Below, piece after piece: positions 293-64,000 of a stretch of 64,000 nucleotides of DNA. The notes under the pieces were generated by a model. That model did not search any database, was not told the origin of the DNA, and saw only the letters and a program-made list of their open reading frames with translations. The translations under genes were made by a program, and so were the position numbers. Numbering within the stretch: the first letter of the stretch is position 1; each line of letters opens with the position of its first letter. Origin of the DNA: Chloroflexota bacterium (lineage in GTDB: Bacteria; Chloroflexota; Anaerolineae; Promineifilales; Promineifilaceae); NCBI GenBank assembly GCA_029559155.1, contig JAKQCM010000240.1, positions 3,130 to 67,129 on the forward strand, written 5' to 3'.

Positions 293-1303
293 ATGCATGA
301 GCCTTTCATGGCCTTATCTACCACTCAAATTTTTTTACTCTCCACGGCCGTTGCCACTCTGCCAATCTTGCTCTACATTGCTCTCATTTACTGGTTCGAC
401 CGGTATGAAAAAGAGCCGTGGTGGTTGTTGACGGCTACATTTTTTTGGGGCGCCATACCCAGCATCCTTTTCGCTTATTTTTTCAACACCCTGCTCAGCG
501 CGCCGATTTACTGGCTAACTGGTGAAACCCTGGGAGAAACCATTAGCGCCAGCCTGATCGCCCCCATTGTCGAAGAATCGATTAAAGGATTGGCTGTTCT
601 GGCGATTTTGCTTATCTGGCGAGATGAACTCGACAGCCCTTTGGATGGCATCATCTATGGCGCGATGGTTGGGTTGGGGTTTGCGCTGGTGGAAAATGTG
701 TTTTATTTCATCAGCGTGTATCAGGAGGGCGGCTTAGAAGCGTGGGGGATGAATGTGTTTGCCCGCAGCATTGTGTTTGGGCTAAACCATGCCCTATTTA
801 GCAGTATGACAGGTCTGGGTATTGCTCTGGCGCGGATGGCGACTCAACCGCTCGTTAAAGCAGCGGCGTTGATTGGGGGATGGAGTACGGCCGTTTTCCT
901 CCATTTCCTCCATAACTTCACCGTCTCCTTTGGCAATTTACTTTGTCTGGTAGCCTTGGTGAGCGATTGGGGCGGCGTACTGCTGACTTTGCTGATTATC
1001 GTTTGGGCGCTGCTGCAAGAAAGGCAGTGGCTGCGCCAATACCTCGCTGAAGAAGTAACTCTGGGCCATCTGGCCAACACCCATTACCTGACCGTTTGTT
1101 CTGGCCGCCGCCGGATCCGGGCGCAATTAACCTGCTTTTTAGATGATGGGCCGGTGGCTTATTGGCGGTTGGTGCGATATCACCAAAATCTGAGCGAGTT
1201 GGCCTACAAAAAGCGCCATTACGCCCTGTTTCAAGATGATTCCAGTTGGAAATTAATCGAGGTTTTACGCCAAAAAATTCAGGTGAACAGCCCAGGCCTG
1301 TGA
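293..1303 (+). CDS. prsW: PrsW-family intramembrane glutamic/metallo-protease
   Basis: 336-aa polytopic membrane ORF. PrsW-type motifs IVEESIKG (EExxK) and NHALFSSMTG (HxxxF). Confidence 0.8.
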   Translation: MHEPFMALSTTQIFLLSTAVATLPILLYIALIYWFDRYEKEPWWLLTATFFWGAIPSILFAYFFNTLLSAPIYWLTGETLGETISASLIAPIVEESIKGLAVLAILLIWRDELDSPLDGIIYGAMVGLGFALVENVFYFISVYQEGGLEAWGMNVFARSIVFGLNHALFSSMTGLGIALARMATQPLVKAAALIGGWSTAVFLHFLHNFTVSFGNLLCLVALVSDWGGVLLTLLIIVWALLQERQWLRQYLAEEVTLGHLANTHYLTVCSGRRRIRAQLTCFLDDGPVAYWRLVRYHQNLSELAYKKRHYALFQDDSSWKLIEVLRQKIQVNSPGL

Positions 1304-1325
1304 CTCTTGCCTCGGCAGCGCGGGC

Positions 1326-1802
1326 CTAATGGCGCACAAGCAGTTGCAATTGATCCCAGTGCGCCTGATCATGTTTCACAGCCAGATTGAGAAGCTCGTG
1401 AGTGCTGGTGGGACCAAAAAAGGAATGGCGTCCCTGCCGCGCCCAAATGGGATCGTCGGGTGGCGGGAGCATGGCAATGGTGCGGCTGCGGGCTGCCAGA
1501 AACTCGTTTAGGGCGATACGGCCGTTCTGCTGTGCATACTGTCGCTCTATCACCCAATCATCCGACGTCGCCCCGGAAATGAACGCATTTGCCGCAGCCA
1601 TCATGTTTTGGAAGCGCGGTTGGTGTACTTCCTGCTCCACATCGCGCAAATGGCAACATAATTCGGTCAGGTTCCATTCGCCCGGCGACGGCCGCCACTG
1701 CCAGTCGATAGTATCCACGGCGAGGGTTTGGGAAACGGCCGTAGCAAACTGCTCCAACTCCGCTAACAATTCGACGACAGGCGGCGGCTCCTGCAACATC
1801 AA
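1326..1802 (-). CDS. DinB/YfiT-like metal-dependent four-helix-bundle protein
   Basis: 158 aa. His triad context (CHLRDVEQEVH ... KHDQAHWDQL). 4-bp start/stop overlap with the upstream HAD gene. Confidence 0.65.
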   Translation of the reverse strand: MMLQEPPPVVELLAELEQFATAVSQTLAVDTIDWQWRPSPGEWNLTELCCHLRDVEQEVHQPRFQNMMAAANAFISGATSDDWVIERQYAQQNGRIALNEFLAARSRTIAMLPPPDDPIWARQGRHSFFGPTSTHELLNLAVKHDQAHWDQLQLLVRH

Positions 1803-2545
1803 GACCCCCTAAAAGGTGCAGCTTCGGGTGACCGATTGCCCACCAACCAGTCATAAAACTGCGCCAGAGATCCGGCTCCGCTGATTAGGGTCTTATCCGG
1901 CGGCTCAGAAGCGACAGATGCCAACCAAAAAGTATTGAGGCCAACCGCCGCGGCCGGCTCAATGTCATTTTCCCAATCATCGCCGATCATCAAGGCTGCC
2001 GGCGCAGGAACCTGAATTATGTCCAAAATTTCCTGGTAATAAGCCGGATGAGGTTTTGTCGCATGCATGTTTTCGTAAGTTGTAACCAGATCGAAAGGAA
2101 AGTCGGTGATGGGCAGCCCAGCCCAGCGCAATCGTTCTTCGATGGCAATTCGCGGAAACATGGGATTGGTGGCGATCACGACTTTGAGGCCTTGAGCAAA
2201 ACAAAATTGAACCAACTCGCGGGCACACGGCCGCTGCGCGCTCACGTCAGCTAATGTGGGGAATTGATCGCGATAAAAGCTTTCAAAAAAGGCTTCCATT
2301 TCCACGGGATCCAGGCCAGTGCGCTGTTGGAAGGCTTGCCAAAACGCATCACGGTTAGAAACGGCCGTGTCCCCATGATCAATCATCGCCTGCGTACAAA
2401 TCATTAACTCCTGCAAAAATTTATCACGCGGCATATACCGCTCGGCATACTCACCCAGCAGCGCAAAATAGCGGGGAATAAAGGCGTCCATGCCATTTCC
2501 CAACAACGTATCGTCTAAATCGAACAAAATCGCTTGCAGTTGCAT
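1799..2545 (-). CDS. HAD-superfamily hydrolase
   Basis: Motif I FDLDDTLL (DxDxT). Motif IV-like IGDDWENDI. 248 aa. Confidence 0.85.
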   Translation of the reverse strand: MQLQAILFDLDDTLLGNGMDAFIPRYFALLGEYAERYMPRDKFLQELMICTQAMIDHGDTAVSNRDAFWQAFQQRTGLDPVEMEAFFESFYRDQFPTLADVSAQRPCARELVQFCFAQGLKVVIATNPMFPRIAIEERLRWAGLPITDFPFDLVTTYENMHATKPHPAYYQEILDIIQVPAPAALMIGDDWENDIEPAAAVGLNTFWLASVASEPPDKTLISGAGSLAQFYDWLVGNRSPEAAPFRGS

Positions 2546-2566
2546 GGTTCTCCCCTCAGAAACAGG

Positions 2567-3363: not shown

Positions 3364-3447
3364 TTCCCTCAGGGAGGTCCCTACAAGGTTGCGAAGTATA
3401 ACACGGCCGTTTTGCCATGTCAAAATTTTTGGGTATGCGCAGCACGG

Positions 3448-4329
3448 CTAACCAGAGGTTGGGCTGAGGCGCAAATCGCTAATTTCCAACCACTGGGTTT
3501 GGCTTGTGGGCAGCACGCCCCAACGGAAACGGCCGTCACATGTAGCCACCATGTATTGATTGTCCAACCAACAGACAAACCCCAGCGGACCTCTGGGGCT
3601 GTGGGCGGTGCGCAGGATTGTCTCGCCATCTATGACAAACTGACACCCTGTCGGCAGCCAGAGTAATTCGTAGGTGTGCCAGGCGGTCATAACGGCCGTT
3701 AGCGGCGCAAAACTAATGCCCAGGCGGCGGCGAACAGAAGGCCAGAGTCGTTTGCGCAGCGCCGGCAGCCGGTTCAACAAGAGAATGATCGGCGAAATAG
3801 GTATGAGGGAAACGGCCGTGGCCCGACCGGCATCCAGCGTAGCGGCAAACCAGCCACGCCCCGGACCTTGCGCCGCCAATGGCAAATCTGAGGGCGGTGA
3901 GGCAAAGAAAAACCAGGTCGCCTGCGGCAGCGCCGGCCGCCGCACGGATGGGTCGCCGAATGGCGCGTTCCAAAAGCCGAAACCGGCCGTGCCGACCAAC
4001 TGATCGCTATCATGCGAAAAACGGGCGCGCAACGACAGATGAGTCCCCGGAGACCAACGAAAAAGAGAACGGCCGTGACCGGCATATTCCTTATTTCCCG
4101 GCCCATAATCGTCTAACTGAGCGTCAGCATAACCAGCGACCACCGGCGGCAGCCAACAGGTGTATATCGGACCTCCCGTGACAACGCCGCCATGCAATTC
4201 CAACAGCCGGAATTCAGTATCCGCCAAATGCTTCACCTGTCTATTATTCAGGAATCGAGTATAATCATGGCCACGAAGGAGAGCGTTTTTTATGGAAATT
4301 TCCTGGTATGGACTTAGCTGCTTTCGCAT
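3448..4329 (-). CDS. hypothetical protein (family not recognised)
   Basis: 293-aa ORF with coding-like composition. The listed start overlaps the divergent MBL gene by 38 nt, so the true start is probably internal (non-ATG). Confidence 0.5.
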   Translation of the reverse strand: MRKQLSPYQEISIKNALLRGHDYTRFLNNRQVKHLADTEFRLLELHGGVVTGGPIYTCWLPPVVAGYADAQLDDYGPGNKEYAGHGRSLFRWSPGTHLSLRARFSHDSDQLVGTAGFGFWNAPFGDPSVRRPALPQATWFFFASPPSDLPLAAQGPGRGWFAATLDAGRATAVSLIPISPIILLLNRLPALRKRLWPSVRRRLGISFAPLTAVMTAWHTYELLWLPTGCQFVIDGETILRTAHSPRGPLGFVCWLDNQYMVATCDGRFRWGVLPTSQTQWLEISDLRLSPTSG

Positions 4330-5334: not shown

Positions 5335-5673
5335 TTAAACGGCCGTTGCCGACGGCGCCTCGCTCTTTGCCGGTTTTGCCGCACTCTCGGGGCTGCTTTT
5401 GGCAGAACTTTCGCCTTCTCCGCTGCTCGCCCCATCTGAGCTGGCGGCCTTGTCGCTCTTGTCCGATTTGCTTCCCGGCAATGTTGCACTTTGTCCGGAG
5501 CGATTATCTGTTACATAAAACCCTTTGCCTTTAAACACGACGCCAACTGAATTGACGACACGCCGTATTTCTCCTGAACACACGGGGCATTCCGTTAAGG
5601 GATCATCCGTCATGCGTTGGCGGACTTCAAATTCATTGTCACATTCTTTGCAACGATACGTATAGATTGGCAT
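5335..5673 (-). CDS. FmdB-family zinc-ribbon protein with Ser/Ala/Lys-rich tail
   Basis: MPIYTYRCKECDNEFEV...CPVCSGEIRRV (CxxC...CxxC). The ORF track starts 4 codons earlier (5685). The family normally starts at MPxYxYxC. Confidence 0.8.
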   Translation of the reverse strand: MPIYTYRCKECDNEFEVRQRMTDDPLTECPVCSGEIRRVVNSVGVVFKGKGFYVTDNRSGQSATLPGSKSDKSDKAASSDGASSGEGESSAKSSPESAAKPAKSEAPSATAV

Positions 5674-5714
5674 TGAACAACTCAAGCTGTTGATTAAAAT
5701 TTAAGTGACTGTAC

Positions 5715-5954: not shown

Positions 5955-6512
5955 ATGTCCATTCAAGATACACACGCTCAGTTAAAATCTGAAATTTGGC
6001 AGGCCGTAGAGCAATCAGGCATCGACCTAAGCGGCATCGACAAAGGAACTCTAACCAGCCTGGTCGATGTGATTATGGACGCCACGCTGATGGCTTTGGA
6101 TGACGAAATGGGCAAACAAGTTCAGAGCGAAACGTCCAAAGTGGTGGGAACGGCCGTTTCCAACGAAGTCCTCGACGACGACAAAGAAGACATCCTCTGG
6201 GAAGGTCGTCCATTCCTTTCCATCTCCCTGCAATACACCATCACCGACGAACGGATACGCATCACCTCCGGCTTCTTGGGCAAAGCCCGGGAAAACATCG
6301 AGCTGGTACGCATCCAGGACCTGGACTACAAACAAACGCTGAGCGAACGCATGATCAATGTCGGTGACATTTCCGTCCTCAGCCATGATCGCAGCGAGCC
6401 GCGTATTGTCCTGAAGAATATCAAAGACCCGGAAGCCGTCTATGAGATCCTGCGGCGCGCCGTGCTGCACGCGCGTAAGCGACATGGATTTACCTACCGA
6501 GAAGAAATGTAA
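5955..6512 (+). CDS. bacterial PH-domain (bPH_2/YdbT-like) protein
   Basis: ILWEGRPF...ITDERIRITSGFLGKARENIELVRIQDLDYKQTLSERMINVGDI is typical of the membrane-flanked PH domain. Confidence 0.7.
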   Translation: MSIQDTHAQLKSEIWQAVEQSGIDLSGIDKGTLTSLVDVIMDATLMALDDEMGKQVQSETSKVVGTAVSNEVLDDDKEDILWEGRPFLSISLQYTITDERIRITSGFLGKARENIELVRIQDLDYKQTLSERMINVGDISVLSHDRSEPRIVLKNIKDPEAVYEILRRAVLHARKRHGFTYREEM

Positions 6513-6569: not shown

Positions 6570-7829
6570 TTAATCAGGCAGCAGAAACCCGACCAATGCC
6601 CCGCCGCCCGGCACGTTTTCCGCCCAGATACGGCCGTTATGCGCCCCCACAATCGCCTGAGCAATGGCTAAACCCAGGCCTGCGCCGCCTGCAGCCCGCG
6701 TCCGGGCCTGTTCACCGCGGTAAAACTGTTCGAACACACGCGGTAAATCAACTGCGTTAAAACCCGCGCCGCTGTCGCGCACCGTCACTACCACACCATC
6801 AGGAGTGCGCACGGCCGTTACCCAAATGCTTCCCCCATCCGGCGTATACCGCAGACCATTGCTAAGCAAATTTGCCAACACCCGGTGAATCTTCGCCACA
6901 TTTAGCCGCACAGGGTCCACATCCTGCCCCACATTGGCCACCAAAGACACCTGCCGCTGTTTGGCCAGCGCTTGAAACGTCTCCAACGTTTCCACAATCA
7001 CATCGCCTAACGAATGCCGCCCAAACTCCATGCTCAAACCGCCAGCTTCTAACTGCGCCAATTCGAACAGATCATCAATCAGCCCATTAAGCGCAATGAT
7101 ATCGGCGCGAATGGTGCGGTAATATCGCTGTACGGTTTGTGGGTCTTCCACCACGCCATCATGCAGCGCCTCAATCATCGCCCGGATGCTGGTGAGCGGC
7201 GTACGCAAATCATGCGAGGTCCAGGCAACCAGATCACGGCGTAAGTTCTCTAATTCTTCTTGCTCATTCGCCGCTTGTTGCAGCTGTGCAGCCATCTGGT
7301 TAAATGTGGCGGCCACCCGCGCCACCTCGTCCTGCCCCTGCACAACCGCTCGCGTATCCAGATTACCGGCGGCAATCTGCTGGGCCGAATCGGCCAGTTC
7401 ACGCAGCCCGGCGTTTAAATTGGCGGCCACAAACACGCCGAACGACGTGGCCACAATGGCTGCAAACAATAGCAGCACGCCGCTTAAAATGAGATCATGT
7501 TGACTGGCAAACATGCGTTCCGACATGATCCAGACGTTAAAAAGCGTTACCACACCAGCCCACCCATAGGTCAACACCAAAGTCAGGCTAAACGATGGCG
7601 AGCGGCGAGCCGCATAACGGAACAAAACATAGCCCACGCCGAGCGAAATCAGCGAGGTAACGGTGAGTGTGGTCACCATTTGGGCCACATCGGCCAGCGG
7701 CGCTTGCATGAGCGCCTGCATTAACAAGACAGCGACCAGCAAAGCGAACGCAGCGCCCAGCAGCAAGATGCGCCAGGATGCACGCAATAACCAGGCCAAT
7801 GGTTTGCTTTGGTCGAGTGTGTTGATCAT
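6570..7829 (-). CDS. sensor histidine kinase (TM-HAMP-HisKA-HATPase)
   Basis: H-box SHDLRTPLTSI. N-box LLSNGLRYT. G1 DSGAGF. G2 GGAGLGLAI. Two N-terminal TM helices. Confidence 0.9.
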   Translation of the reverse strand: MINTLDQSKPLAWLLRASWRILLLGAAFALLVAVLLMQALMQAPLADVAQMVTTLTVTSLISLGVGYVLFRYAARRSPSFSLTLVLTYGWAGVVTLFNVWIMSERMFASQHDLILSGVLLLFAAIVATSFGVFVAANLNAGLRELADSAQQIAAGNLDTRAVVQGQDEVARVAATFNQMAAQLQQAANEQEELENLRRDLVAWTSHDLRTPLTSIRAMIEALHDGVVEDPQTVQRYYRTIRADIIALNGLIDDLFELAQLEAGGLSMEFGRHSLGDVIVETLETFQALAKQRQVSLVANVGQDVDPVRLNVAKIHRVLANLLSNGLRYTPDGGSIWVTAVRTPDGVVVTVRDSGAGFNAVDLPRVFEQFYRGEQARTRAAGGAGLGLAIAQAIVGAHNGRIWAENVPGGGALVGFLLPD

Positions 7830-7835: not shown

Positions 7836-8558
7836 TTATCCTGGCTCAAATTTGTAGCCAACGCCCCACACCGTCGCCAGCCAGACGGGGTTTCCCGGGT
7901 CGATTTCGATTTTTTCGCGCAGGCGGCGAATGTGGACGGTAACTGTGCTGGGATCGACATACTCAGAAAAACCCCAAACTTTTTCCAGCAATTGGTCGCG
8001 TTTAAAGACCTGGCGTGGATGGGAGGCCATAAACCAGAGCAGGTTAAACTCGGTGGCCGTTAGCTCGATATTTTTGCCGCGAACGGTTACCAACCGGGTA
8101 TTGGGATCGATGGCGAGATCGGTGAAGGTTAACGGCCGTTGCCCGCCATCATTCCCCATCGTCCCCGCCGACCGCCGCAAAACCGCCTTCACCCGCGAAA
8201 CCAGTTCCGCCGGCGAAAAGGGCTTTGTCACGTAATCGTCCGCACCCAGCTCCAGGCCATAAATGCGGTCTGTTTCTTGCTGGCGCGCCGTTAACATAAT
8301 AACCGGAACATTAACGGCCGTATCCCCGCGCAGCTCGCGCAAAATCGACAGGCCATCCACCTCCGGCAGCATCAAATCCAACACCACCAGGGCTGGAAGC
8401 TGTTTACGCACAGCCTCTAACGCCTGACGGCCGTCTCGCGCCACCCGCACCTGAAACCCTTCGCGCTTCAAGTACAGACTCACCACTTCCACCACCGACG
8501 CTTCATCATCGACAACTAAAATGTCGCCCAATTCCGTGAGAGTGTTCATGTATTCCAT
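7836..8558 (-). CDS. OmpR/PhoB-family response regulator
   Basis: Receiver motifs (VVDDE, LDLMLP, MLTA, KPF). C-terminal winged helix (TVWGVGYKF). Lies 6 nt upstream of the kinase gene. Confidence 0.9.
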   Translation of the reverse strand: MEYMNTLTELGDILVVDDEASVVEVVSLYLKREGFQVRVARDGRQALEAVRKQLPALVVLDLMLPEVDGLSILRELRGDTAVNVPVIMLTARQQETDRIYGLELGADDYVTKPFSPAELVSRVKAVLRRSAGTMGNDGGQRPLTFTDLAIDPNTRLVTVRGKNIELTATEFNLLWFMASHPRQVFKRDQLLEKVWGFSEYVDPSTVTVHIRRLREKIEIDPGNPVWLATVWGVGYKFEPG

Positions 8559-8626: not shown

Positions 8627-9382
8627 TCATTTTGTAATAGATGTTGTGGGCTGCTGGCTGGCGGTGGGCGGCGGCTGGTCGGCTGTGTCCCGTTGGCAAT
8701 GGGGCCACGGATCTTCCCCGGCCAGCAGCGCCGCCAGCGCCGGGCTGTCGGCATAATAACCATGATAAGACGGCGGCAGCAGGGCCGCAATCTGCGCCAT
8801 AATGAATTGTGTATAAACGGGCAAATCCTTTGTACGCACCCGTTCCCCATCGGTCGGCAGCGTGAACGGCCGTCCAATTCTCACTTCCAACGTCGTCGGC
8901 CGCAGCCGCTTAAAATTGTGAAACAACCGATCCCCATTCACCAATCCAACCGGCAAGATGGGCACATTGGCCCGGCTGGCCAAAAAAGCCGCACCATCTT
9001 TTGCGGCCATCAACTGCCCGGAATAGCTGCGCGTGCCTTCCGGAGCCAGACCAAACACCGTACCCGAAGCAATCGCCGTCAGCGCCTCGCGCAGCGACTG
9101 CCGATCCGCCTCGCCCCGGCTGATATAGATTGCGCCCAACCAGGCCATAATCGGCCCAAAAATAGGGTGATAGCGCCACTTCTCCACTGCGAAAAATCGC
9201 CATTTTTGCACAGGAAACGTAAGCAGCAGCACCGGCGTGTCCACAACGCTGGTGTGATTGAGGACCACAATATAAGGGCCTTCGTGGGGAATATTTTCCC
9301 GCCCGATCACTTTAATGCGCGCCAGAATAATCAGGCGCACCACATTCATAGCCAGACGAATTAGGCGATAACGAAAAAGCAT
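8627..9382 (-). CDS. plsC: 1-acyl-sn-glycerol-3-phosphate acyltransferase family protein
   Basis: HX4D motif NHTSVVD and PEGTRS motif. Confidence 0.8.
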   Translation of the reverse strand: MLFRYRLIRLAMNVVRLIILARIKVIGRENIPHEGPYIVVLNHTSVVDTPVLLLTFPVQKWRFFAVEKWRYHPIFGPIMAWLGAIYISRGEADRQSLREALTAIASGTVFGLAPEGTRSYSGQLMAAKDGAAFLASRANVPILPVGLVNGDRLFHNFKRLRPTTLEVRIGRPFTLPTDGERVRTKDLPVYTQFIMAQIAALLPPSYHGYYADSPALAALLAGEDPWPHCQRDTADQPPPTASQQPTTSITK

Positions 9383-9441: not shown

Positions 9442-10437
9442 TTACGGCGCAGCACTTGCCACACGCTGCCCAAAAGCGATGACCTGCACGGTAACGGCCG
9501 TTCCGCCCGGCGGCGCGGCTTGCATGGTAAACGGCCGTGTCTCTCCCGCCAGCAGCACATCCGGCAAAGTCATCTGCTGAAAACCGGCCAGATTGCCCTG
9601 AGCGTCGTATAAACTGGCCACCACAATCACCTGGGCGGCGGTTTCGCCCACATTTTGCACCTGCCCGCTAATTTCCACCCGGTCGCTCTGGGCCGAAACG
9701 GCCGTATCCCCCACAGCCAAATCCAGATAACGCGATCCCAGGTCCACCACAGCATCGCCGCCCGATACTGCGATCAGCGGCGCACCCCATTCGGCGGGCG
9801 GGGCGGCCAGCAGCACGCCAAACGGCGACACACCGCCCGGCGGGATGATAGCGGCGCTGGCCCAGGCCACGGCCGTTGCCGACGGACCGCCAGCGGCATC
9901 GGGCAGTTCCAGGGTCAGCGTCACATTATCGACTGGCGTGTCGCCATCGTTTACCACTTCGCCCAGCAGCCACACCGCGCCCACCGGCGTGCGGTAAACC
10001 TGAATTTGGCGCACGCGCACTTGAACGGGCACGGCCGTACCCACCAATCCGGCATAATCGGCCACAACCGGCGGCGGTAAAATCAACGCCTGCCCAATTT
10101 GTAAAAGCTGCGGCTGCACCTCAGGGTTCAGCGCTTTAATCTCTTCCACCGTCGTATCGCGGGCGATGGCAATGCCCAACAACGTATCGCCCTCGGCTAC
10201 CAGATAGATGATTGGCGTGGGCGAGGGTGTCGTTGTGGGCGCAGGCCGGGGTGTGGGTGTGGTTTGCAGCACCACGGCCGTCGGCGGCAATTTGGTCGCC
10301 AGGGTAATGCCGATGGCGGGAATGGGCGTTACAGTAGGCGGGGAAACGGGGGTGACGGCCGTTTCCAATTCTGACGATTGGCACTGCGCCAGAAAAATCA
10401 GCGCCGCCAAAAGGAAAATGATCGCTTTTTTATCCAT
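9442..10437 (-). CDS. LysM-domain lipoprotein with Pro/Thr-rich linker
   Basis: Probable start at MDKKAIIFLLAALIFLAQC (lipobox). The ORF track extends to 10593. LysM: YLVAEGDTLLGIAIARDTTVEEIKALNP...LILP. Confidence 0.7.
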   Translation of the reverse strand: MDKKAIIFLLAALIFLAQCQSSELETAVTPVSPPTVTPIPAIGITLATKLPPTAVVLQTTPTPRPAPTTTPSPTPIIYLVAEGDTLLGIAIARDTTVEEIKALNPEVQPQLLQIGQALILPPPVVADYAGLVGTAVPVQVRVRQIQVYRTPVGAVWLLGEVVNDGDTPVDNVTLTLELPDAAGGPSATAVAWASAAIIPPGGVSPFGVLLAAPPAEWGAPLIAVSGGDAVVDLGSRYLDLAVGDTAVSAQSDRVEISGQVQNVGETAAQVIVVASLYDAQGNLAGFQQMTLPDVLLAGETRPFTMQAAPPGGTAVTVQVIAFGQRVASAAP

Positions 10438-10552
10438 AGACGCCGGATGAGTATAACGAATTTTAACCAGCGGGCGAACATGGCGCGCGGCGGCAACCGG
10501 AATATCAGCCGCCGGGTTGTCGGGCGGCGCAGGACGTATTACACTCTGACGC

Positions 10553-20420: not shown

Positions 20421-20555
20421 ATTCCTAACATAACGTATCCACATTATGCACGAATATGCGAAGGGGAGGAACTGCGCTTTATAGGATTTTTGTACTAGGC
20501 ACGGCCGTTTCAGGCAAAACACGCAGCATCAATCAGGCAAAACCATGCTTTCAGA

Positions 20556-24490: not shown

Positions 24491-24556
24491 GGGAGAAAAG
24501 GGTAGAGAGAATCGGCCGTTGGTTTTAAAGCGCCAACGGCCGTTTGCCTGTTAAAC

Positions 24557-49437: not shown

Positions 49438-50077
49438 TGCGCAGCAGCACAATCCCCAGCCAGACAAACCAAATGATTTGGCCCAGGCCAAAGATTCCGA
49501 CCAGGCTGCCTGTCAAACCGGGGACAAGGGAGATGATGCCCACCGCCCCAACCCCCAGGCCGATGATATTCAAGCTTTTGGAAAGTTCACCTGCCCGCAG
49601 TGCGGCCAGGCTGACCAGCAGCACCCACAGGCCGCCCAGAATTTCGCCATTGGCGTTGCCCAGCCCGTTGGCCACGGCTTCAATACCCAGCCAGGTGAGT
49701 GCCGCCTGGGCCGGGTTTTGGGAATAAAGGGGCGCAATCGCTGCCAGCCCGGCGTTGGCCACCATGCCAGAGGCGATCAGCGAACCGGCCCAGATGATGG
49801 CAACGGCCGTTCCCACTTGCATGAGCGCGGGTGCGTTGGTGTGTAAACGGCCGTACAACGCCAACGACAGAACAATCAGCGCAAAGCCAAAGAACACGTA
49901 CATCAGCAGGTTGGTGGAAAAAACGATCATCTGTTTGTCAACGTTCAGGGCCACCTTTTGCGCCGGATCGGTGATGCTGGGGTAATCCAGAACGACGAGG
50001 AAGATGACGATGCCAGTCAGATAGGCAACTGCCATGTACAGTGCGGCCAAACCGCCCAATTTTTGTAAAGTTTTCAT
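49403..50077 (-). CDS. DUF4386-like polytopic membrane protein
   Basis: Start at MKTLQKLGGLAALYMAVAYL... Paralogous in layout to 50802-51506. The ORF track starts at 50101. Confidence 0.6.
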   Translation of the reverse strand: MKTLQKLGGLAALYMAVAYLTGIVIFLVVLDYPSITDPAQKVALNVDKQMIVFSTNLLMYVFFGFALIVLSLALYGRLHTNAPALMQVGTAVAIIWAGSLIASGMVANAGLAAIAPLYSQNPAQAALTWLGIEAVANGLGNANGEILGGLWVLLVSLAALRAGELSKSLNIIGLGVGAVGIISLVPGLTGSLVGIFGLGQIIWFVWLGIVLLRTKASQAAPAIH

Positions 50078-52779: not shown

Positions 52780-52972
52780 GGGGTGGCTTACGGCCGTTTG
52801 CCATTCGCGTTTGTCCGACATTACCCTGTACCTGCTGTGGCCGACCGTTTGTCCGCGCCACCTGCCCAATGCACAGGTACTATACCCAGGCCACAGGGTT
52901 GCCGTATAGACACTTTGGTGTGGATTCGAAGTGTTGTTTTGATTGAGTAAAAATCTAGGGGAAAAAGGACCG

Positions 52973-55624
52973 CTACAGCAAGCCCAGCTCATGGGCACGG
53001 ACGATCGCTTCGGTGCGTCGCTGAACTTGTAGTTTTTCAAATATCCGGCGGTTGTGGCCCTTGATGGTGTCCAGGGCCAGGAAGAGTCGCTGGCCGATTT
53101 CCTGGTTCGAGAGGCCCTGGGCAATCAGGCACAAGACTTCCAGCTCGCGCGGGCTGAGTGGTTCGGCCAAAGTTGAAGGGCCGGGAGTGGAGGAAAACGG
53201 CCGTTCTTCCATGTTCTCTGCCACAAAGGCGGCCAACAACTTTTTCACATAGCCCGGTCGTACTCCCTGTACGGCCGTTGCCGATAGGAGTTCCGCCATC
53301 AAGGCCCCTTTGTTCAAGAAGAGACAGATGTAGCCGCCCGGCTCGGCCAGCGCCAGTGTCGCGCCAAGCAGGTCCAATGCCTGCGCCGTCTCACCACACG
53401 CATAAAAAGCGATCGATTGGACGGCCATTACCTCAAGCAATCTTTGCGCCGACCCTTTGGCTTCCACTTGCTGGCGCAAAGATTTTAACAATTTCAAGGC
53501 CGCGGATGGGTCGCCACCGGCAATGAAAGCACGTGCCTCCATGAGCGGCAGGTCATGTCGCCGTGCCAATTGGAAAACAGCCTCAAGATTTCCCTGGCGC
53601 AGGCAGATCTCCGACTGGCAGTAGGCCAGGTCCTGCAGACGAATGCGGATGTTCTTCTGGTACACGGTTTGTTCTGTCTGCCAGGCAATGCCCTCCGCGC
53701 CGCCCACATCTCCTTGGGCCAATTTCAGACGGGCCAGGTACAACTTGCTCAAAATCAGCCGGTCAACGACATGATCATACTGCTGCGCCCATTGTATGCT
53801 CTGCTCCAGGTATTTTTCAGCGGCATTCAGGTTGTTCCACTCATAATGGATATCCGCCAGGCCCATATATGCGACCGCCGCGTTCGACGGTGAATATTCA
53901 CAAATCAAATCCAGAGCCTGTTGGTAGGTTTCGGCTGCCTGGAAAAGCTGGCTGTTCAGCGCCTGAATCTGGCCCAAACGAAGTGAAGCCAGAATCGTGT
54001 TGGTGATGTCCCCATCTGTCTGAGCAAGCGCCAAGGCTTCGGCATAGGCCTGACTAGCAGCCGCATGATCCTCCTGGAGATAGCAGCCCTGGCCCAACAT
54101 CAACAGCGCTGTGGAGCGGTCCGGCAGGTTGGTAGAAGGCAGATATTCCAGGGCGCGGTGTGCCTGAGATAGGATGGTTTCTATCTCAAACTGGTGCGTC
54201 GCCAGGGTCGCCCTGGCAATGGCGATTTTCCCAATCAAGTCTCGGGTCGTGTCGTCCAATTTCGACCCTGACAACGATGCGGCAGCCAAGGCGGCCTCAG
54301 TCGCCTGGATTTTCTCCTCTACCCCTATCGTTTGGCCGATAGCCAGCAGCAGCGAAGCTTGCTTCCACCACAGGGCGGGTCGGGAATCTAGCCAGGTCTT
54401 GGGAAGTGAGTCCAACCAACTCAGTATCGTTGTTGCCGTGCCAGGAAGGTGCAGCGGCATCTTCTTACTTTCCACCAGCCATTCAGCACGCGCAATGTCA
54501 TTGGCCATGACTGCATGGCGGAATGCTTCCAGCATCAGGTTGTTGTTTTCACACCATTTGCTGGCCCGGATATGCAGGTCAGCGATTTCTTCTGGAGCAA
54601 GCCTTTGTCCCAACCGCTGGCGCAACAGGTCAGCAAAGAGATGGTGATACCGATACCAACGCCGTTCGTTATCCAAAGGGACAAGGAATAAGTTGACGTG
54701 TTCAAGATATTCCAGGGTTTCCTGTCCGGAATCAGGGAGAACACCCAAAACAGCGTCACACAACGGCCCGCATAGGCGGTCGAGGATTGAGGTATGGAGC
54801 AAGAAGGTTTGAACCATTTCAGGCTGCTGGTGGAAAACCTCTTCGAGCAGATAGTCGAGCACGAAGTAGTGGCTGCCCGTAAACGATTGGATAAAGCCTG
54901 TGGTGTCCTTAATTCCCTGCATGGAGAGCGCCGCCAATTGCAAACCGGCGATCCAACCTTCAGTGCGGGTTTCCAAGGCGGCGATGTCTTCGGGTGAGAG
55001 GGTCAATCCCATCACCTGGTTGAGAAATTCGGCCGCTTCAGGGGGATTAAAGCGTAAATCGGCCGTGCGCAGTTCTGTCAATTGTCGCCTGGCGCGTAAC
55101 CGTGACAGGGGTAGGGATGGATCTTCGCGCGTGGCGATGACCAGGTGCATCTGCGGCGGCTGGTGTTCGATCAGGAATGTCAGGCACTGATCGACCGGTT
55201 GAGAATCAATCGAGTGATAGTCATCCAACACAAGGGCAAAATCTTCTGGAATGCTGGCAATTTCATTTAGCAAGATCGTTAGGATGAATTCAGGTGATTG
55301 TTGCTGCGGCAGTTCGAGTATCCCGAACGCCTTCATCCCAATTTCGGGTGAAAGGGTTTGCAATGCAGCAATAAGGTAAGCGAGAAAGCGGGTGGGATCG
55401 CGGTCTCTTTCATCTAGGGAGAGCCAGGCAAACGGCCGTTCACATCTTTCGATCCATTCGCAGATTAACGTTGTTTTGCCAAAGCCGGCCGGAGCGGAGA
55501 CGAGTGTCAATGTGCCACCTGTTTGTAAACCCTGGTTGAGCTTGACGAGGAGTTGGGGTCGGGAAACAAGTGGTTGCCGTAAATGTGGCATGTGCAGTTT
55601 CGTCTTCAGCAGCGTATAAGCCAT
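52973..55624 (-). CDS. MalT-like LuxR-family transcriptional regulator (P-loop, TPR-like region, HTH)
   Basis: Walker A SAPAGFGKTT. Long helical-repeat middle. C-terminal LSPRELEVLCLIAQGLSNQEIGQRLFLALDTIKGHNRRIFEKL. Confidence 0.9.
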   Translation of the reverse strand: MAYTLLKTKLHMPHLRQPLVSRPQLLVKLNQGLQTGGTLTLVSAPAGFGKTTLICEWIERCERPFAWLSLDERDRDPTRFLAYLIAALQTLSPEIGMKAFGILELPQQQSPEFILTILLNEIASIPEDFALVLDDYHSIDSQPVDQCLTFLIEHQPPQMHLVIATREDPSLPLSRLRARRQLTELRTADLRFNPPEAAEFLNQVMGLTLSPEDIAALETRTEGWIAGLQLAALSMQGIKDTTGFIQSFTGSHYFVLDYLLEEVFHQQPEMVQTFLLHTSILDRLCGPLCDAVLGVLPDSGQETLEYLEHVNLFLVPLDNERRWYRYHHLFADLLRQRLGQRLAPEEIADLHIRASKWCENNNLMLEAFRHAVMANDIARAEWLVESKKMPLHLPGTATTILSWLDSLPKTWLDSRPALWWKQASLLLAIGQTIGVEEKIQATEAALAAASLSGSKLDDTTRDLIGKIAIARATLATHQFEIETILSQAHRALEYLPSTNLPDRSTALLMLGQGCYLQEDHAAASQAYAEALALAQTDGDITNTILASLRLGQIQALNSQLFQAAETYQQALDLICEYSPSNAAVAYMGLADIHYEWNNLNAAEKYLEQSIQWAQQYDHVVDRLILSKLYLARLKLAQGDVGGAEGIAWQTEQTVYQKNIRIRLQDLAYCQSEICLRQGNLEAVFQLARRHDLPLMEARAFIAGGDPSAALKLLKSLRQQVEAKGSAQRLLEVMAVQSIAFYACGETAQALDLLGATLALAEPGGYICLFLNKGALMAELLSATAVQGVRPGYVKKLLAAFVAENMEERPFSSTPGPSTLAEPLSPRELEVLCLIAQGLSNQEIGQRLFLALDTIKGHNRRIFEKLQVQRRTEAIVRAHELGLL

Positions 55625-55975
55625 GCAGATATTATAAAATCAGTAGATCGAAATGAGTAGACAAAATTAACAAGAAGCGCCACGATGAATCCTTCAATCT
55701 CTTTCAATAGAGGACTCGAAGTGGCTAAACAGAATAACAGCAATTCCCGGAGCTTTACCTTGCACCCCTCGACTGATAACTGATTTTTAGCGCAAAATCT
55801 TTACGAAACTATGTCCTATTTGAGTCGGGAGCAGATCGATTCGATACAACCCCAACAGAATCTCCATCACATCTTGATAATTCGTATGTATCCTTGTGCC
55901 AGAACAAATAAACGGCCGTAAGCGGTCTCGCCCTCCACCGGCCATCTGCAACTGCATACCACAAAAGGAACACAT

Positions 55976-57358
55976 ATGAACGGATTACTAAAAACAACGG
56001 GCACTCTGCTGCTGCTTCTCCTTGTCCTGGGGGTGGGGTACGTCGGGTATTCCAGCTCCAACAGCCAGACGGCCGACCTGCTAGGGCAAATAAAGACCAC
56101 GCTCGGCTCAGACGACACGGCCGTTGCCAATCCCATGCCCACACCGCCCCCCACCGTGCCAGTCGAACGCGGCGACGTAGAAGAAACCATCATCGCCCCT
56201 GGCCAATTAGCCGGCACAAAAGAACAGATCTTACCCGCCGGCGTGGGCGGCACAATCGCAGAATTACACGTGCGGCCAGGTGACAGGGTGAAAGCCGGAG
56301 AAGTGCTGGCGCAGATTGACCGACGGCCGTATGAAGAAGCCCTCTCTCTGGCCCAACTAAAACTCTCCCTCGCACAGGAAGAATTAATACGCCAGATCGC
56401 CAACGCAGAATTGGCCGTGCAGAGCGCCGCAACCGGCGTCGCCTCGGCGCAGGCGAGCTATCCCAACCAGACAGCCGCCCAAATCAGAGTGCAGCAAGCC
56501 CAACAATCCCTCGCCGACGCCCAGGCCGCCTACAACAAAGCGTTTGATCCGGGGCGCGACTGGGAACTCAACGACCCTTACCGCGCCGAGACGCTTAAAG
56601 CGGAGCGCGAAGCCGCCCCCCGGCAAGTGCAAATGGCCGAAGATACCCTGTCCATCGCTCAGGCAGAATTGGCGAGCGTGCAAAACCAAAGTTGGGCCAA
56701 CAGCCAGAGCGTCAACGGAGCTGAAATTAGCGTCACAAAAGCGCAGGCTGAATTGGATGCCTTACGAGCCAACGGCGTTGATCCCTTACTGCAATGGGCA
56801 GTGGATAAGGCCCAAGCCGACCTGGACGCGACCACTACCGTCGCCCCGTTTGATGGCGTGATACTGGAGGTGGGCGTGCGCGTAGGCCAAAATGTAAGCG
56901 CCGGTCAATTACTGCTGCTTCTGGCCGATTTGCAGCAGGGAGAGGTGCTGGCCTCGGTCATTGAGGAAGATTTGCCCCTGGTACGTCTTGGGCAGCGTGT
57001 CGAAATCTACTTCGACGCCGTACCCGACAGCACGATTACCGGCACGGTTAACCGCATAGTACCCCAACGCACGAACGCGGAACGTCCACTTTACGCGGTG
57101 TATATCACCGTGGATGAACTGCCAGAGATGCTGCTGCCGGGCATGACGGCCGACGCCATCATCATCATCCAGCGGCAAGAAGATGTGCTGCGGCTGCCTC
57201 GCACCTTGATTCGGGCGGGCGATGATGATACGGCGGTAGTGCAGGTGTGGCACAACGGCGCCGCTGAACCGCGCACCATACAGATCGGCCTGCGTGGTGA
57301 CACATATGTGGAAATCCTCTCTGGGTTAACAGAGGGGGAATTGGTATTAGGCCAATAA
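55976..57358 (+). CDS. HlyD/MacA-type periplasmic adaptor subunit
   Basis: N-terminal TM anchor, long coiled-coil hairpin, beta-barrel C-terminus. Directly upstream of the MacB-type ABC genes. Confidence 0.85.
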   Translation: MNGLLKTTGTLLLLLLVLGVGYVGYSSSNSQTADLLGQIKTTLGSDDTAVANPMPTPPPTVPVERGDVEETIIAPGQLAGTKEQILPAGVGGTIAELHVRPGDRVKAGEVLAQIDRRPYEEALSLAQLKLSLAQEELIRQIANAELAVQSAATGVASAQASYPNQTAAQIRVQQAQQSLADAQAAYNKAFDPGRDWELNDPYRAETLKAEREAAPRQVQMAEDTLSIAQAELASVQNQSWANSQSVNGAEISVTKAQAELDALRANGVDPLLQWAVDKAQADLDATTTVAPFDGVILEVGVRVGQNVSAGQLLLLLADLQQGEVLASVIEEDLPLVRLGQRVEIYFDAVPDSTITGTVNRIVPQRTNAERPLYAVYITVDELPEMLLPGMTADAIIIIQRQEDVLRLPRTLIRAGDDDTAVVQVWHNGAAEPRTIQIGLRGDTYVEILSGLTEGELVLGQ

Positions 57359-57381: not shown

Positions 57382-58047
57382 ATGACAAGCATTATTCAAG
57401 TTGAGAATTTGGAAAAGACCTATACGCTGGGCCAAAACGACGTTCACGCTCTGCGCGGCGTTACCTTTCAGGTGGCGGCCGGTGAATTTGTGGCCCTGAC
57501 AGGGCCTTCAGGCAGCGGCAAATCGACGCTCATGCACCTGCTGGGCTGCCTGGACCGGCCGTCCGACGGCCGTTACCTCCTGCAAAACCGCGATGTTGGC
57601 CGTCTGTCCGCGGATGAACAGGCGGAAGTACGTAACCAGCACATTGGTTTTGTCTTTCAAAAATTCAACCTGCTGCCTCGGATTACGGCTTTGGAAAACG
57701 TCATGCTGCCTCTGCTTTATCGCGGCCGGGTGAAAGATGCTAAACAGCAAGCGACGGCCGCGCTGCACACAGTCGGGCTGGCCAACCGCGCCCACCATCG
57801 CCCGGCAGAGATGTCTGGCGGGCAGCAGCAGCGGGTGGCCATTGCCCGCGCCCTGGTAACAGACCCGGCCATCATTTTGGCCGATGAACCAACCGGCAAT
57901 CTGGACAGCCGCACTGGCGCGGAGGTATTGGATTTGCTGCTCAACCTGGCGGCTAACGGCCGTACCATCCTTGTTGTCACGCATGATCCCACGGTGGCCG
58001 GCCGCGCCGGGCGGGTGTTGCAAATGATGGATGGGGTGATGCAGTAA
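57382..58047 (+). CDS. ABC transporter ATP-binding protein (MacB/LolD type)
   Basis: Walker [10 protein letters not shown]. Signature SGGQQQR. Walker B ILADEPT. Confidence 0.93.
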
Positions 58048-58085: not shown

Positions 58086-59381
58086 ATGACCTGGCTAAAC
58101 ATTATTCGCACGGCCGTACAAGGCATTACCAGCAACAAGCTGCGCTCCGCCCTGACCATGACGGGCATTATTATCGGCGTGGCTTCAGTGATCGCCATGC
58201 TGGCTTTGGGCAACGGCGCCCGCCAGGAGGTGGAGTCCAGCTTCCGCTTTCTTGGTTCGGACGAAATTGAAATTGGCATGGAACAGACGCTGGAAGATGG
58301 CGAAATGCGGCCGAAAGGCAAACTGCTCTCCTTTGCCGATGGCTTGGAAATGGTAGCCAACGTGCCCCTGGTTGACCGGGTAGAGATGATGGTAACGGGG
58401 TATGGCAAGGCGCGTAACGGCCGTTACGTGGCCGACATCACCGCGACAGGGGCCATGGCCGATGCGCTGCCGGGTCTGGCGCAAAAGAATCAGACCCAAC
58501 CGCTGGGCTGGCCGGACGGTCAACCTCTGACGAACGAGGCATTTTTGGCCAACGGCCGTTTCTTCACCCCCGCTGAAGTGGCCGGCGGCGCGGAGGTGTG
58601 CGTGCTGGCGCACAAAACCGCGCTCGACCTCTTTGCCGGAGATAACCCGGTTGGCGAGACTATCTGGTTAAACCGCCAGCGGTGCCAGGTCATTGGCACA
58701 CTACGCGAATTAGAATCCACCAATCCGCAGGAACGCTACGGGAGTACCAATATCAATGAAGGGCTTTATCTGCCGATTAGCACGGCCGTAACCCACTTGT
58801 TTGCCAAAGAGCCGGCCGTTCTTATCGCCGCCCATGTGCGCGACGAAGCGCAGATGGAAACGGCCAAAGAGCAAATTGCCGCCTACTTGCGCCAGCGCCA
58901 CGGCATCACCCCAGGCGACGCGGGCAATGATACCGATGACTTTTTTATGACCACGCGGCAGGACGTGTTGGGGGCCAAACTGGAAGCGGCGCGTACGTTT
59001 TCCCTGCTGTTGGCGGCCATGGCTACCGTCTCGTTGGTGGTGGGCGGCATCGGCATTATGAACGTGATGCTGGTGAGTGTGACCGAACGCACACGAGAAA
59101 TAGGGGTGCGCATGGCAATTGGGGCGCGGCGGCGCGACCTCATTCGGCACTTTTTGCTGGAAGCGGTGTTGATTAGTGCGCTGGGCGGGTTGTTGGGAAC
59201 GGCCGTCGGCATTCTGGTAATCCCGTTAGCGGCGCAACTGAACGGCAGTCCGGCGCTGTTGCAGCCAAACAGCATTCCCCTGGCCTTTGGCGTGGCCCTG
59301 CTGACAGGTGTCGTCTTTGGCCTCTACCCGGCCGTGCGGGCAGCGTATTTGAAGCCGATAGATGCGCTGCGCTACGAATAA
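58086..59381 (+). CDS. ABC transporter permease (MacB periplasmic core + FtsX domain)
   Basis: 431 aa. N-terminal TM, ~250-aa extracytoplasmic domain, C-terminal FtsX-like three TM helices ([14 protein letters not shown]). Confidence 0.88.
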
Positions 59382-59528
59382 GGCCACGCGTCAAACCCGA
59401 CCCAAAGCCCACACAATCTTCATCAAATCTTGACAACCGCTTACCTATAATACTTGCAAAACATGACAGGCACATTTCTTGAGCCGTCGCTCAAACAAAC
59501 AAACAAACATATTCGAGGAGAAATTAAA

Positions 59529-60095
59529 ATGACAGAAGAGACAATTGGCAAGAAAAACAACCGCGTAGGTTTATTCTTTGGTGGAGCTTTCGTATTGCTG
59601 CTGTTATTGGCCGCGACTTTTTTAGGCGGCAAACTCATGGCTCAAAATGAGGGGGGAGTGCCCTTAGCCGATGTCGCTCAGCCCATCACCTTGCAAGATG
59701 GCAATGTAGCCCAAAGTATTCCAGCCCCGCAAATGGAGATGGCTGCCGAACTGCCCGCCAGAGCGCCGGAAACAACAGGGCTGTTTGTGGGCCGCACCGA
59801 TGACACCCTGACCATTGGGACAGGCAATATCATGGCTATGATTTCCTCTGAACCCAACGCCGTGCCAGAGTTTAGCTACGACGGCATACAGCAAAATGTC
59901 TTGGTGACGAACAAAACCAGGTTATACATAGATAGAACCGAGTATGCTTTTGGGCAAACGGCCGTCCAACAAAAATTGGAGGAAGTGGAAAGCCTGGATG
60001 TACTAACAGAAAATGCCATCCTCGAAGTGTGGGGCGAGCGGTCTGGTGACCAAATCGTGGCCGAGGCTATTCTCTTGCAATTACCCAAGCGGTAA
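59529..60095 (+). CDS. membrane-anchored hypothetical protein
   Basis: GAGGAG SD before the ATG at 59529. Single N-terminal TM (VGLFFGGAFVLLLLLAATFLGG). No family recognised. Confidence 0.55.
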   Translation: MTEETIGKKNNRVGLFFGGAFVLLLLLAATFLGGKLMAQNEGGVPLADVAQPITLQDGNVAQSIPAPQMEMAAELPARAPETTGLFVGRTDDTLTIGTGNIMAMISSEPNAVPEFSYDGIQQNVLVTNKTRLYIDRTEYAFGQTAVQQKLEEVESLDVLTENAILEVWGERSGDQIVAEAILLQLPKR

Positions 60096-61070: not shown

Positions 61071-62600
61071 ATGCGCCACAAACTACAAACCCGCCTTTTC
61101 GTCACCCTGATCAGCGTCGCCGTGATTGCCTTGGCGATTGTGGTCATGGTTGCCATGCAACAGACGCGCCGCCAATTTGGAGCCTATGTGGCTCGTGACC
61201 AGATGATCACCCTGAACCAGACGGCGCAACTGTTTGAAGCGCCCATTCTGGCCGGCTCGTTGGCGGAACTGGACAGCCTGACGGCCGAAGTTGCCCAGGC
61301 ATATGGCATTATGGCCTACGTATACAATCCGGTGGGGGTGATTGTGGCCGCTTCTGATCTGGCGCAGGTAGGGCAGAGGGTAACGGCCGTTCCCCTACCT
61401 GCTGTTGGTCTGGCTCTCAAACAAGACGCGCCCAATGGAGAAGCCAGCACCATCCACTTCTTTTCCACGTTGGGAAACAACCAATTGGTAGAAGCGACAA
61501 TCAACATGCCCAGCAGCGCCGATCTAGTCGGCAATCGTCAATGGCTGGCGTCGGATTTATCAATCCCAGATGAAGCCTTCCTTGTAATCGGCGAAACCTC
61601 CTCCCCAACCACTACCTCCTCTCTGGCATTGGCTTACTCGCCTGTGCCGCTGCCCGATGTACTGATAGACACCTCTGCCAGCCAGAACGCTTTCGTGCAA
61701 CTTGTCAATCGCGCCTTTGCGGCGGCTCTGGGGATCTCGCTGCTGGTGGCCGTGCTGCTTAGTTGGGTTACGGCGCGCCGCATTTTGCGCCCCGTGCAAA
61801 CCCTCACCGCGGCCACCCGGCAAATGGGACAGGGCGATCTCAGCATTCGCGTGGCCGTGCGCGGCAAAGATGAATTGGCCGAATTGGGGCAATCGTTTAA
61901 CCAGATGGCCGCCGATCTGGCGCATCAGGAGGAACTGCGCCGTCATCTGGCCGCCGACGTAGCGCATGAATTGTTGACGCCGCTGACGGCCGTGCGCGGC
62001 CACCTGGAGGCAGTGCAGGATGGCCTGCTGGAACCCACGCCAGAGGTCATCAACTCCCTGCATGGCGAGGTGATGTTGTTGGATAAATTGATTGCCGACC
62101 TGCAAGAATTATCGCTGGCGGAAGCGGGACAACTGCACCTGGATATGCAGCCGGTTTCGTTGGTAGAAATCATCATGGGGGCGGTAACGGCCGTTTCCCC
62201 CCAACTCGTCGCCCGCAATCTGGCATTGACAACCCATCTGCCAGACAATTTACCCCTCATAGAACTCGACGCTCGACGCATGGGGCAGGTGTTCCGCAAC
62301 CTGCTGGGCAACGCCATCAAATACAGCGACCCCGGCGGGCAACTGACCGTCACCGCCTGGCAGTCGGGGGACGAACTGCTTGTTAGCGTGCGCGACACAG
62401 GCACAGGCATCGCGCCAGAGCATTTGCCGTATGTTTTCGACCGGTTCTACCGCGCCGACCCTTCACGGGCACGCGATACCGGCGGTTCCGGCCTGGGTTT
62501 GGCGATTGTGAAAGGAGTCGTGGAAGCGCATCACGGCCGTGTGTGGGCGGATAGCGTCCTCGGCGTAGGTTCCACTTTCACCATCAGCCTGCCGCTTTAA
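61071..62600 (+). CDS. sensor histidine kinase (TM, ~200-aa extracytoplasmic domain, HAMP, HisKA, HATPase)
   Basis: H-box AHELLTPLTAV. N-box LLGNAIKYS. G1 DTGTGI. G2 GGSGLGLAI. Confidence 0.9.
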   Translation: MRHKLQTRLFVTLISVAVIALAIVVMVAMQQTRRQFGAYVARDQMITLNQTAQLFEAPILAGSLAELDSLTAEVAQAYGIMAYVYNPVGVIVAASDLAQVGQRVTAVPLPAVGLALKQDAPNGEASTIHFFSTLGNNQLVEATINMPSSADLVGNRQWLASDLSIPDEAFLVIGETSSPTTTSSLALAYSPVPLPDVLIDTSASQNAFVQLVNRAFAAALGISLLVAVLLSWVTARRILRPVQTLTAATRQMGQGDLSIRVAVRGKDELAELGQSFNQMAADLAHQEELRRHLAADVAHELLTPLTAVRGHLEAVQDGLLEPTPEVINSLHGEVMLLDKLIADLQELSLAEAGQLHLDMQPVSLVEIIMGAVTAVSPQLVARNLALTTHLPDNLPLIELDARRMGQVFRNLLGNAIKYSDPGGQLTVTAWQSGDELLVSVRDTGTGIAPEHLPYVFDRFYRADPSRARDTGGSGLGLAIVKGVVEAHHGRVWADSVLGVGSTFTISLPL

Positions 62601-62844
62601 TACGCAACCGAATACTTTTAGCCTCCGCGTCCTCTGCGCCCTCCGCGGTAAAATTCCGGGATTCGTCAGTCAATCTGGATTGGAGACTGGTTCAATCCTC
62701 AATCTACCGTAGGCTATTTACGCCGCGTTCCCAACCAGAGAGGCCCCTTGCATCACGTTTCACGGCCAACCTCAAAAAATCCGAAAGTTCTACTTTTTAG
62801 CAGGAAGGAGACGACATGAGCGCAGGCTCAACACCATGAATGAA

Positions 62845-62906
62845 AATCCGCAGATTTCGCAGATGACACAGATTTTTTTCTCTGCGTTCTCTGCGCCCTC
62901 CGCGGT
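62845..62906. repeat. short structured repeat (CGCAGAT-type units facing CTGCG units); partial second copy at 62621-62649
   Basis: ATCCGCAGATTTCGCAGATGACACAGAT...TCTGCGTTCTCTGCGCCCTCCGCGGT. The 18-mer CTCTGCGCCCTCCGCGGT occurs at 62632-62649 and 62889-62906. Confidence 0.55.
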
Positions 62907-62926
62907 TTTATTTTCTGAGGAGACAT

Positions 62927-64000
62927 ATGAAACGAGATTTTGCATACATTGTTCTGGGATTGGGCGGCATCGGCAGCGGGGCGCTGTATTGGCTGGCGCG
63001 GCAGGCGGGCGGCGACGTGCTGGGGCTGGAGCAGTTTGAAATCGGCCACGTGCGCGGCGGCTCGCAGGACCATTCGCGCATCATCCGCTTGTCTTACCAC
63101 ACGCCGGGCTATGTGGAACTGGCCAAAGCGGCTTATGGCGCGTGGACGGCCGTCGAAACCGACCTCGGCCAATCACTCATCGTCAAAACAGGCGGGTTGG
63201 ACCTGTTTCCGGCCAATGCGGCCATCCCCAGCCGTGATTACACGGCCAGCATGGACGCTGGCGGCGTGCCCTACGACTGGCTGAGCGCCGCCGAGGTCAT
63301 GGCCCGCTGGCCCCAGTTCCGCCTGACCGACGACGTGCGCGCGCTCTTCCAGGCGGAAAGCGGCATCGCCCCGGCGGCGAAGTGCAACGCGGCCCATTTA
63401 AAGCTGGCGCAGCAGTATGGGGCTGTGGTGAAGGATGGCGTGGGAGCAACGGCCGTTACCACCCAGGGCAATACCATCGTTGTAAAAACCGGCGGCGAGA
63501 CCTATCACTGCCACAAACTCATCGTGGCCAACGGCGCGTGGACCAATCACACCCTGGTCCAATTCGGCCGTAAGCTGCCGCTGACCGTCACACAGGAACA
63601 GGTCGTCTACTACAATACGCCCCACGCCGCCGAATTTATGCCCGACCGTTTCCCCATCTGGATATGGATGGATGAGCCGAGTTTTTACGGCTTCCCGGTG
63701 TACGGCGAAGCCGGGCCCAAAGCGGCGCAAGACGTGGGCGGCGACGTGGTGACAGCCGAATCGCGCTCGTTTGAACCCAACCCGGCAGTGCAGCAGCGCG
63801 TAGACGATTTTGTCCAGCGCATCCTGCCCCACGCCTACGGCCCTCCCATTCTCACCAAGACCTGCCTGTACACCCTCACGCCGGACCGGGATTTTGTCAT
63901 CGACACGCTGCCGGAAAATCCCAATGTGATTGTGGCCGTTGGCGCGGGGCACGCCTTTAAGTTTGCCTCGGTGATCGGCCGGATTTTGAGCCAGCTGGCC
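62927..64000 (+). CDS. monomeric sarcosine oxidase / N-methyltryptophan oxidase-family FAD enzyme (3-prime end outside the window)
   Basis: Not in the ORF track because no stop is reached. GAGGAG SD, ATG 62927, open for 358 codons to the window edge. FAD-binding IVLGLGGIGSGALYWLA. C-terminal GAGHAFKFASVIG. Confidence 0.85.
   Translation, partial: MKRDFAYIVLGLGGIGSGALYWLARQAGGDVLGLEQFEIGHVRGGSQDHSRIIRLSYHTPGYVELAKAAYGAWTAVETDLGQSLIVKTGGLDLFPANAAIPSRDYTASMDAGGVPYDWLSAAEVMARWPQFRLTDDVRALFQAESGIAPAAKCNAAHLKLAQQYGAVVKDGVGATAVTTQGNTIVVKTGGETYHCHKLIVANGAWTNHTLVQFGRKLPLTVTQEQVVYYNTPHAAEFMPDRFPIWIWMDEPSFYGFPVYGEAGPKAAQDVGGDVVTAESRSFEPNPAVQQRVDDFVQRILPHAYGPPILTKTCLYTLTPDRDFVIDTLPENPNVIVAVGAGHAFKFASVIGRILSQLA

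What the first reader, a model, noticed from the sequence alone, without database searches (positions are those of the whole stretch)
344..63456. Highly iterated octamer palindrome ACGGCCGT (HIP1-like), about one copy per 560 bp
My manual scan finds roughly 115 exact ACGGCCGT sites in 64 kb. With A and T near 0.21 and G and C near 0.29, the composition-based expectation is only about 1.5-2.

Sites occur in genes on both strands, in all three frames and in intergenic DNA (for example 20501 and 55911). About 20 one-mismatch relatives (CCGGCCGT, TCGGCCGT, ACGGCCGC, GCGGCCGT) are also present.

The only well-known analogue is HIP1 (GCGATCGC) of cyanobacteria, whose function is still debated. Over-represented uptake sequences (DUS/USS) are another precedent, but those are not palindromic octamers scattered in coding frames.

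The core contains the EagI/Eco52I-type site CGGCCG. A link to a methyltransferase, a repair or recombination signal, or a nucleoid protein is therefore conceivable. I am not aware of this word having been described.
Basis: seen in the sequence. Interest (0 to 1): 0.8.

Follow-up and report, generated by a model that had tools for sequence, protein, structure and literature searches.

The report
Hyperabundant ACGGCCGT palindrome in Chloroflexota
The eight-letter DNA palindrome ACGGCCGT occurs about once every 560 bases, 70-100 times more than chance, through the genes of one family of Chloroflexota bacteria and their phages; this makes it a second, independent case of the unexplained 'highly iterated palindromes' otherwise described only in cyanobacteria.

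Summary

It is not a by-product of coding. Synonymous-codon shuffling gives 12.6±3.2 sites against 108 in genes. 59 of 62 Thr-Ala-Val and 32 of 33 [NDHY]-Gly-Arg tripeptides are spelled with the word. TAV itself is 7-10 times commoner than its permutations, so the DNA word has reshaped the proteins.

Sites arise in place by substitution, in all three frames and between genes. Spacing is Poisson-like, flanks are not conserved and there is no hairpin covariation.

The window comes from a Promineifilaceae MAG (Chloroflexota, Anaerolineae). All ten chromosomal lineages sampled inside one rpoC clade carry the word at 0.7-1.8/kb; in three it is the 10-mer AACGGCCGTT. A basal Promineifilum-like lineage and more distant Anaerolineae lack it.

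Sites show about 10-fold fewer substitutions than background. Tailed-phage and plasmid/ICE-like contigs carry 2-4 sites/kb.

This is a new member of the HIP class. No paper in the searched library describes it. The mechanism is inferred, not shown: recognition of the CGGCCG core, probably by an orphan methyltransferase, coupled to biased repair or recombination. No such gene lies in the window.

The parts
344..351 (.). site, phase 0 (Thr-Ala-Val), ORF 293-1303(+)
887..894 (.). site, phase 0 (Thr-Ala-Val), ORF 293-1303(+)
1518..1525 (.). site, phase 1 ([NDHY]-Gly-Arg), ORF 1326-1802(-)
1735..1742 (.). site, phase 0 (Thr-Ala-Val), ORF 1326-1802(-)
2361..2368 (.). site, phase 0 (Thr-Ala-Val), ORF 1799-2545(-)
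3403..3410 (.). site, intergenic
3529..3536 (.). site, phase 1 ([NDHY]-Gly-Arg), ORF 3448-4329(-)
3692..3699 (.). site, phase 0 (Thr-Ala-Val), ORF 3448-4329(-), 10-mer AACGGCCGTT
3812..3819 (.). site, phase 0 (Thr-Ala-Val), ORF 3448-4329(-)
4069..4076 (.). site, phase 1 ([NDHY]-Gly-Arg), ORF 3448-4329(-)
5339..5346 (.). site, phase 0 (Thr-Ala-Val), ORF 5335-5685(-), 10-mer AACGGCCGTT
6150..6157 (.). site, phase 0 (Thr-Ala-Val), ORF 5955-6512(+), 10-mer AACGGCCGTT
6630..6637 (.). site, phase 1 ([NDHY]-Gly-Arg), ORF 6570-7829(-)
6811..6818 (.). site, phase 0 (Thr-Ala-Val), ORF 6570-7829(-)
8132..8139 (.). site, phase 2 (x-Arg-Pro-x), ORF 7836-8558(-), 10-mer AACGGCCGTT
8314..8321 (.). site, phase 0 (Thr-Ala-Val), ORF 7836-8558(-)
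8427..8434 (.). site, phase 1 ([NDHY]-Gly-Arg), ORF 7836-8558(-)
8866..8873 (.). site, phase 2 (x-Arg-Pro-x), ORF 8627-9382(-)
9494..9501 (.). site, phase 0 (Thr-Ala-Val), ORF 9442-10593(-), 10-mer AACGGCCGTT
9531..9538 (.). site, phase 2 (x-Arg-Pro-x), ORF 9442-10593(-)
9698..9705 (.). site, phase 0 (Thr-Ala-Val), ORF 9442-10593(-)
9869..9876 (.). site, phase 0 (Thr-Ala-Val), ORF 9442-10593(-)
10031..10038 (.). site, phase 0 (Thr-Ala-Val), ORF 9442-10593(-)
10274..10281 (.). site, phase 0 (Thr-Ala-Val), ORF 9442-10593(-)
10355..10362 (.). site, phase 0 (Thr-Ala-Val), ORF 9442-10593(-)
10808..10815 (.). site, phase 0 (Thr-Ala-Val), ORF 10553-12913(+), 10-mer AACGGCCGTT
11107..11114 (.). site, phase 2 (x-Arg-Pro-x), ORF 10553-12913(+)
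11464..11471 (.). site, phase 2 (x-Arg-Pro-x), ORF 10553-12913(+), 10-mer AACGGCCGTT
11541..11548 (.). site, phase 1 ([NDHY]-Gly-Arg), ORF 10553-12913(+)
12008..12015 (.). site, phase 0 (Thr-Ala-Val), ORF 10553-12913(+)
12618..12625 (.). site, phase 1 ([NDHY]-Gly-Arg), ORF 10553-12913(+)
12822..12829 (.). site, phase 1 ([NDHY]-Gly-Arg), ORF 10553-12913(+)
13422..13429 (.). site, phase 1 ([NDHY]-Gly-Arg), ORF 12938-14383(+)
15069..15076 (.). site, phase 0 (Thr-Ala-Val), ORF 14837-16147(-), 10-mer AACGGCCGTT
15240..15247 (.). site, phase 0 (Thr-Ala-Val), ORF 14837-16147(-)
16088..16095 (.). site, phase 1 ([NDHY]-Gly-Arg), ORF 14837-16147(-)
16178..16185 (.). site, phase 2 (x-Arg-Pro-x), ORF 16158-20360(-), 10-mer AACGGCCGTT
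18245..18252 (.). site, phase 2 (x-Arg-Pro-x), ORF 16158-20360(-), 10-mer AACGGCCGTT
18935..18942 (.). site, phase 2 (x-Arg-Pro-x), ORF 16158-20360(-)
20501..20508 (.). site, intergenic
21417..21424 (.). site, phase 0 (Thr-Ala-Val), ORF 21239-22387(-)
21602..21609 (.). site, phase 1 ([NDHY]-Gly-Arg), ORF 21239-22387(-)
21804..21811 (.). site, phase 0 (Thr-Ala-Val), ORF 21239-22387(-), 10-mer AACGGCCGTT
22236..22243 (.). site, phase 0 (Thr-Ala-Val), ORF 21239-22387(-)
22283..22290 (.). site, phase 1 ([NDHY]-Gly-Arg), ORF 21239-22387(-)
22967..22974 (.). site, phase 1 ([NDHY]-Gly-Arg), ORF 22937-24490(-)
23568..23575 (.). site, phase 0 (Thr-Ala-Val), ORF 22937-24490(-)
23682..23689 (.). site, phase 0 (Thr-Ala-Val), ORF 22937-24490(-)
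23957..23964 (.). site, phase 1 ([NDHY]-Gly-Arg), ORF 22937-24490(-), 10-mer AACGGCCGTT
24333..24340 (.). site, phase 0 (Thr-Ala-Val), ORF 22937-24490(-), 10-mer AACGGCCGTT
24438..24445 (.). site, phase 0 (Thr-Ala-Val), ORF 22937-24490(-)
24536..24543 (.). site, intergenic, 10-mer AACGGCCGTT
24875..24882 (.). site, phase 1 ([NDHY]-Gly-Arg), ORF 24557-25540(-)
24941..24948 (.). site, phase 1 ([NDHY]-Gly-Arg), ORF 24557-25540(-)
25684..25691 (.). site, phase 2 (x-Arg-Pro-x), ORF 25652-26755(+)
26474..26481 (.). site, phase 0 (Thr-Ala-Val), ORF 25652-26755(+)
26993..27000 (.). site, phase 2 (x-Arg-Pro-x), ORF 26814-27839(+)
27387..27394 (.). site, phase 0 (Thr-Ala-Val), ORF 26814-27839(+)
29169..29176 (.). 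site, phase 0 (Thr-Ala-Val), ORF 28025-32377(-) rpoC, 10-mer AACGGCCGTT
29387..29394 (.). site, phase 1 ([NDHY]-Gly-Arg), ORF 28025-32377(-) rpoC
30308..30315 (.). site, phase 1 ([NDHY]-Gly-Arg), ORF 28025-32377(-) rpoC
32704..32711 (.). site, phase 1 ([NDHY]-Gly-Arg), ORF 32650-33585(-)
32981..32988 (.). site, phase 0 (Thr-Ala-Val), ORF 32650-33585(-)
33190..33197 (.). site, phase 1 ([NDHY]-Gly-Arg), ORF 32650-33585(-)
35220..35227 (.). site, phase 1 ([NDHY]-Gly-Arg), ORF 35094-35615(-)
35591..35598 (.). site, phase 0 (Thr-Ala-Val), ORF 35536-36186(-)
35798..35805 (.). site, phase 0 (Thr-Ala-Val), ORF 35536-36186(-)
35949..35956 (.). site, phase 2 (x-Arg-Pro-x), ORF 35536-36186(-)
36153..36160 (.). 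site, phase 2 (x-Arg-Pro-x), ORF 35536-36186(-), 10-mer AACGGCCGTT
36273..36280 (.). site, phase 1 ([NDHY]-Gly-Arg), ORF 36183-37406(-)
36331..36338 (.). site, phase 0 (Thr-Ala-Val), ORF 36183-37406(-)
36798..36805 (.). site, phase 1 ([NDHY]-Gly-Arg), ORF 36183-37406(-)
37128..37135 (.). site, phase 1 ([NDHY]-Gly-Arg), ORF 36183-37406(-)
37653..37660 (.). site, phase 1 ([NDHY]-Gly-Arg), ORF 37416-37922(-)
38882..38889 (.). site, phase 2 (x-Arg-Pro-x), ORF 38598-39071(+), 10-mer AACGGCCGTT
39869..39876 (.). site, phase 0 (Thr-Ala-Val), ORF 39175-44967(-), 10-mer AACGGCCGTT
40091..40098 (.). site, phase 0 (Thr-Ala-Val), ORF 39175-44967(-)
41169..41176 (.). site, phase 2 (x-Arg-Pro-x), ORF 39175-44967(-)
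41540..41547 (.). site, phase 0 (Thr-Ala-Val), ORF 39175-44967(-)
42248..42255 (.). site, phase 0 (Thr-Ala-Val), ORF 39175-44967(-)
42626..42633 (.). site, phase 0 (Thr-Ala-Val), ORF 39175-44967(-)
42683..42690 (.). site, phase 0 (Thr-Ala-Val), ORF 39175-44967(-)
42848..42855 (.). site, phase 0 (Thr-Ala-Val), ORF 39175-44967(-)
42929..42936 (.). site, phase 0 (Thr-Ala-Val), ORF 39175-44967(-)
43919..43926 (.). site, phase 0 (Thr-Ala-Val), ORF 39175-44967(-), 10-mer AACGGCCGTT
44084..44091 (.). site, phase 0 (Thr-Ala-Val), ORF 39175-44967(-)
44395..44402 (.). site, phase 1 ([NDHY]-Gly-Arg), ORF 39175-44967(-)
44561..44568 (.). site, phase 0 (Thr-Ala-Val), ORF 39175-44967(-)
45271..45278 (.). 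site, phase 1 ([NDHY]-Gly-Arg), ORF 45091-46131(-)
45704..45711 (.). site, phase 0 (Thr-Ala-Val), ORF 45091-46131(-)
47456..47463 (.). site, phase 0 (Thr-Ala-Val), ORF 46261-48573(-)
48521..48528 (.). site, phase 0 (Thr-Ala-Val), ORF 46261-48573(-)
49803..49810 (.). site, phase 1 ([NDHY]-Gly-Arg), ORF 49019-49846(+), 10-mer AACGGCCGTT
49847..49854 (.). site, intergenic
52790..52797 (.). site, intergenic
53197..53204 (.). site, phase 2 (x-Arg-Pro-x), ORF 52973-55624(-), 10-mer AACGGCCGTT
53271..53278 (.). site, phase 0 (Thr-Ala-Val), ORF 52973-55624(-)
55432..55439 (.). site, phase 2 (x-Arg-Pro-x), ORF 52973-55624(-), 10-mer AACGGCCGTT
55912..55919 (.). site, intergenic
56117..56124 (.). site, phase 0 (Thr-Ala-Val), ORF 55976-57358(+)
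56323..56330 (.). site, phase 2 (x-Arg-Pro-x), ORF 55976-57358(+)
57566..57573 (.). site, phase 1 ([NDHY]-Gly-Arg), ORF 57382-58047(+)
57956..57963 (.). site, phase 1 ([NDHY]-Gly-Arg), ORF 57382-58047(+)
58110..58117 (.). site, phase 0 (Thr-Ala-Val), ORF 58086-59381(+)
58417..58424 (.). site, phase 1 ([NDHY]-Gly-Arg), ORF 58086-59381(+), 10-mer AACGGCCGTT
58552..58559 (.). site, phase 1 ([NDHY]-Gly-Arg), ORF 58086-59381(+), 10-mer AACGGCCGTT
58782..58789 (.). site, phase 0 (Thr-Ala-Val), ORF 58086-59381(+)
59199..59206 (.). site, phase 0 (Thr-Ala-Val), ORF 58086-59381(+)
59958..59965 (.). site, phase 0 (Thr-Ala-Val), ORF 59454-60095(+)
61383..61390 (.). site, phase 0 (Thr-Ala-Val), ORF 61071-62600(+), 10-mer AACGGCCGTT
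61986..61993 (.). site, phase 0 (Thr-Ala-Val), ORF 61071-62600(+)
62187..62194 (.). site, phase 0 (Thr-Ala-Val), ORF 61071-62600(+), 10-mer AACGGCCGTT
62533..62540 (.). site, phase 1 ([NDHY]-Gly-Arg), ORF 61071-62600(+)
63146..63153 (.). site, phase 0 (Thr-Ala-Val), ORF 62927-64000(+)
63449..63456 (.). site, phase 0 (Thr-Ala-Val), ORF 62927-64000(+), 10-mer AACGGCCGTT

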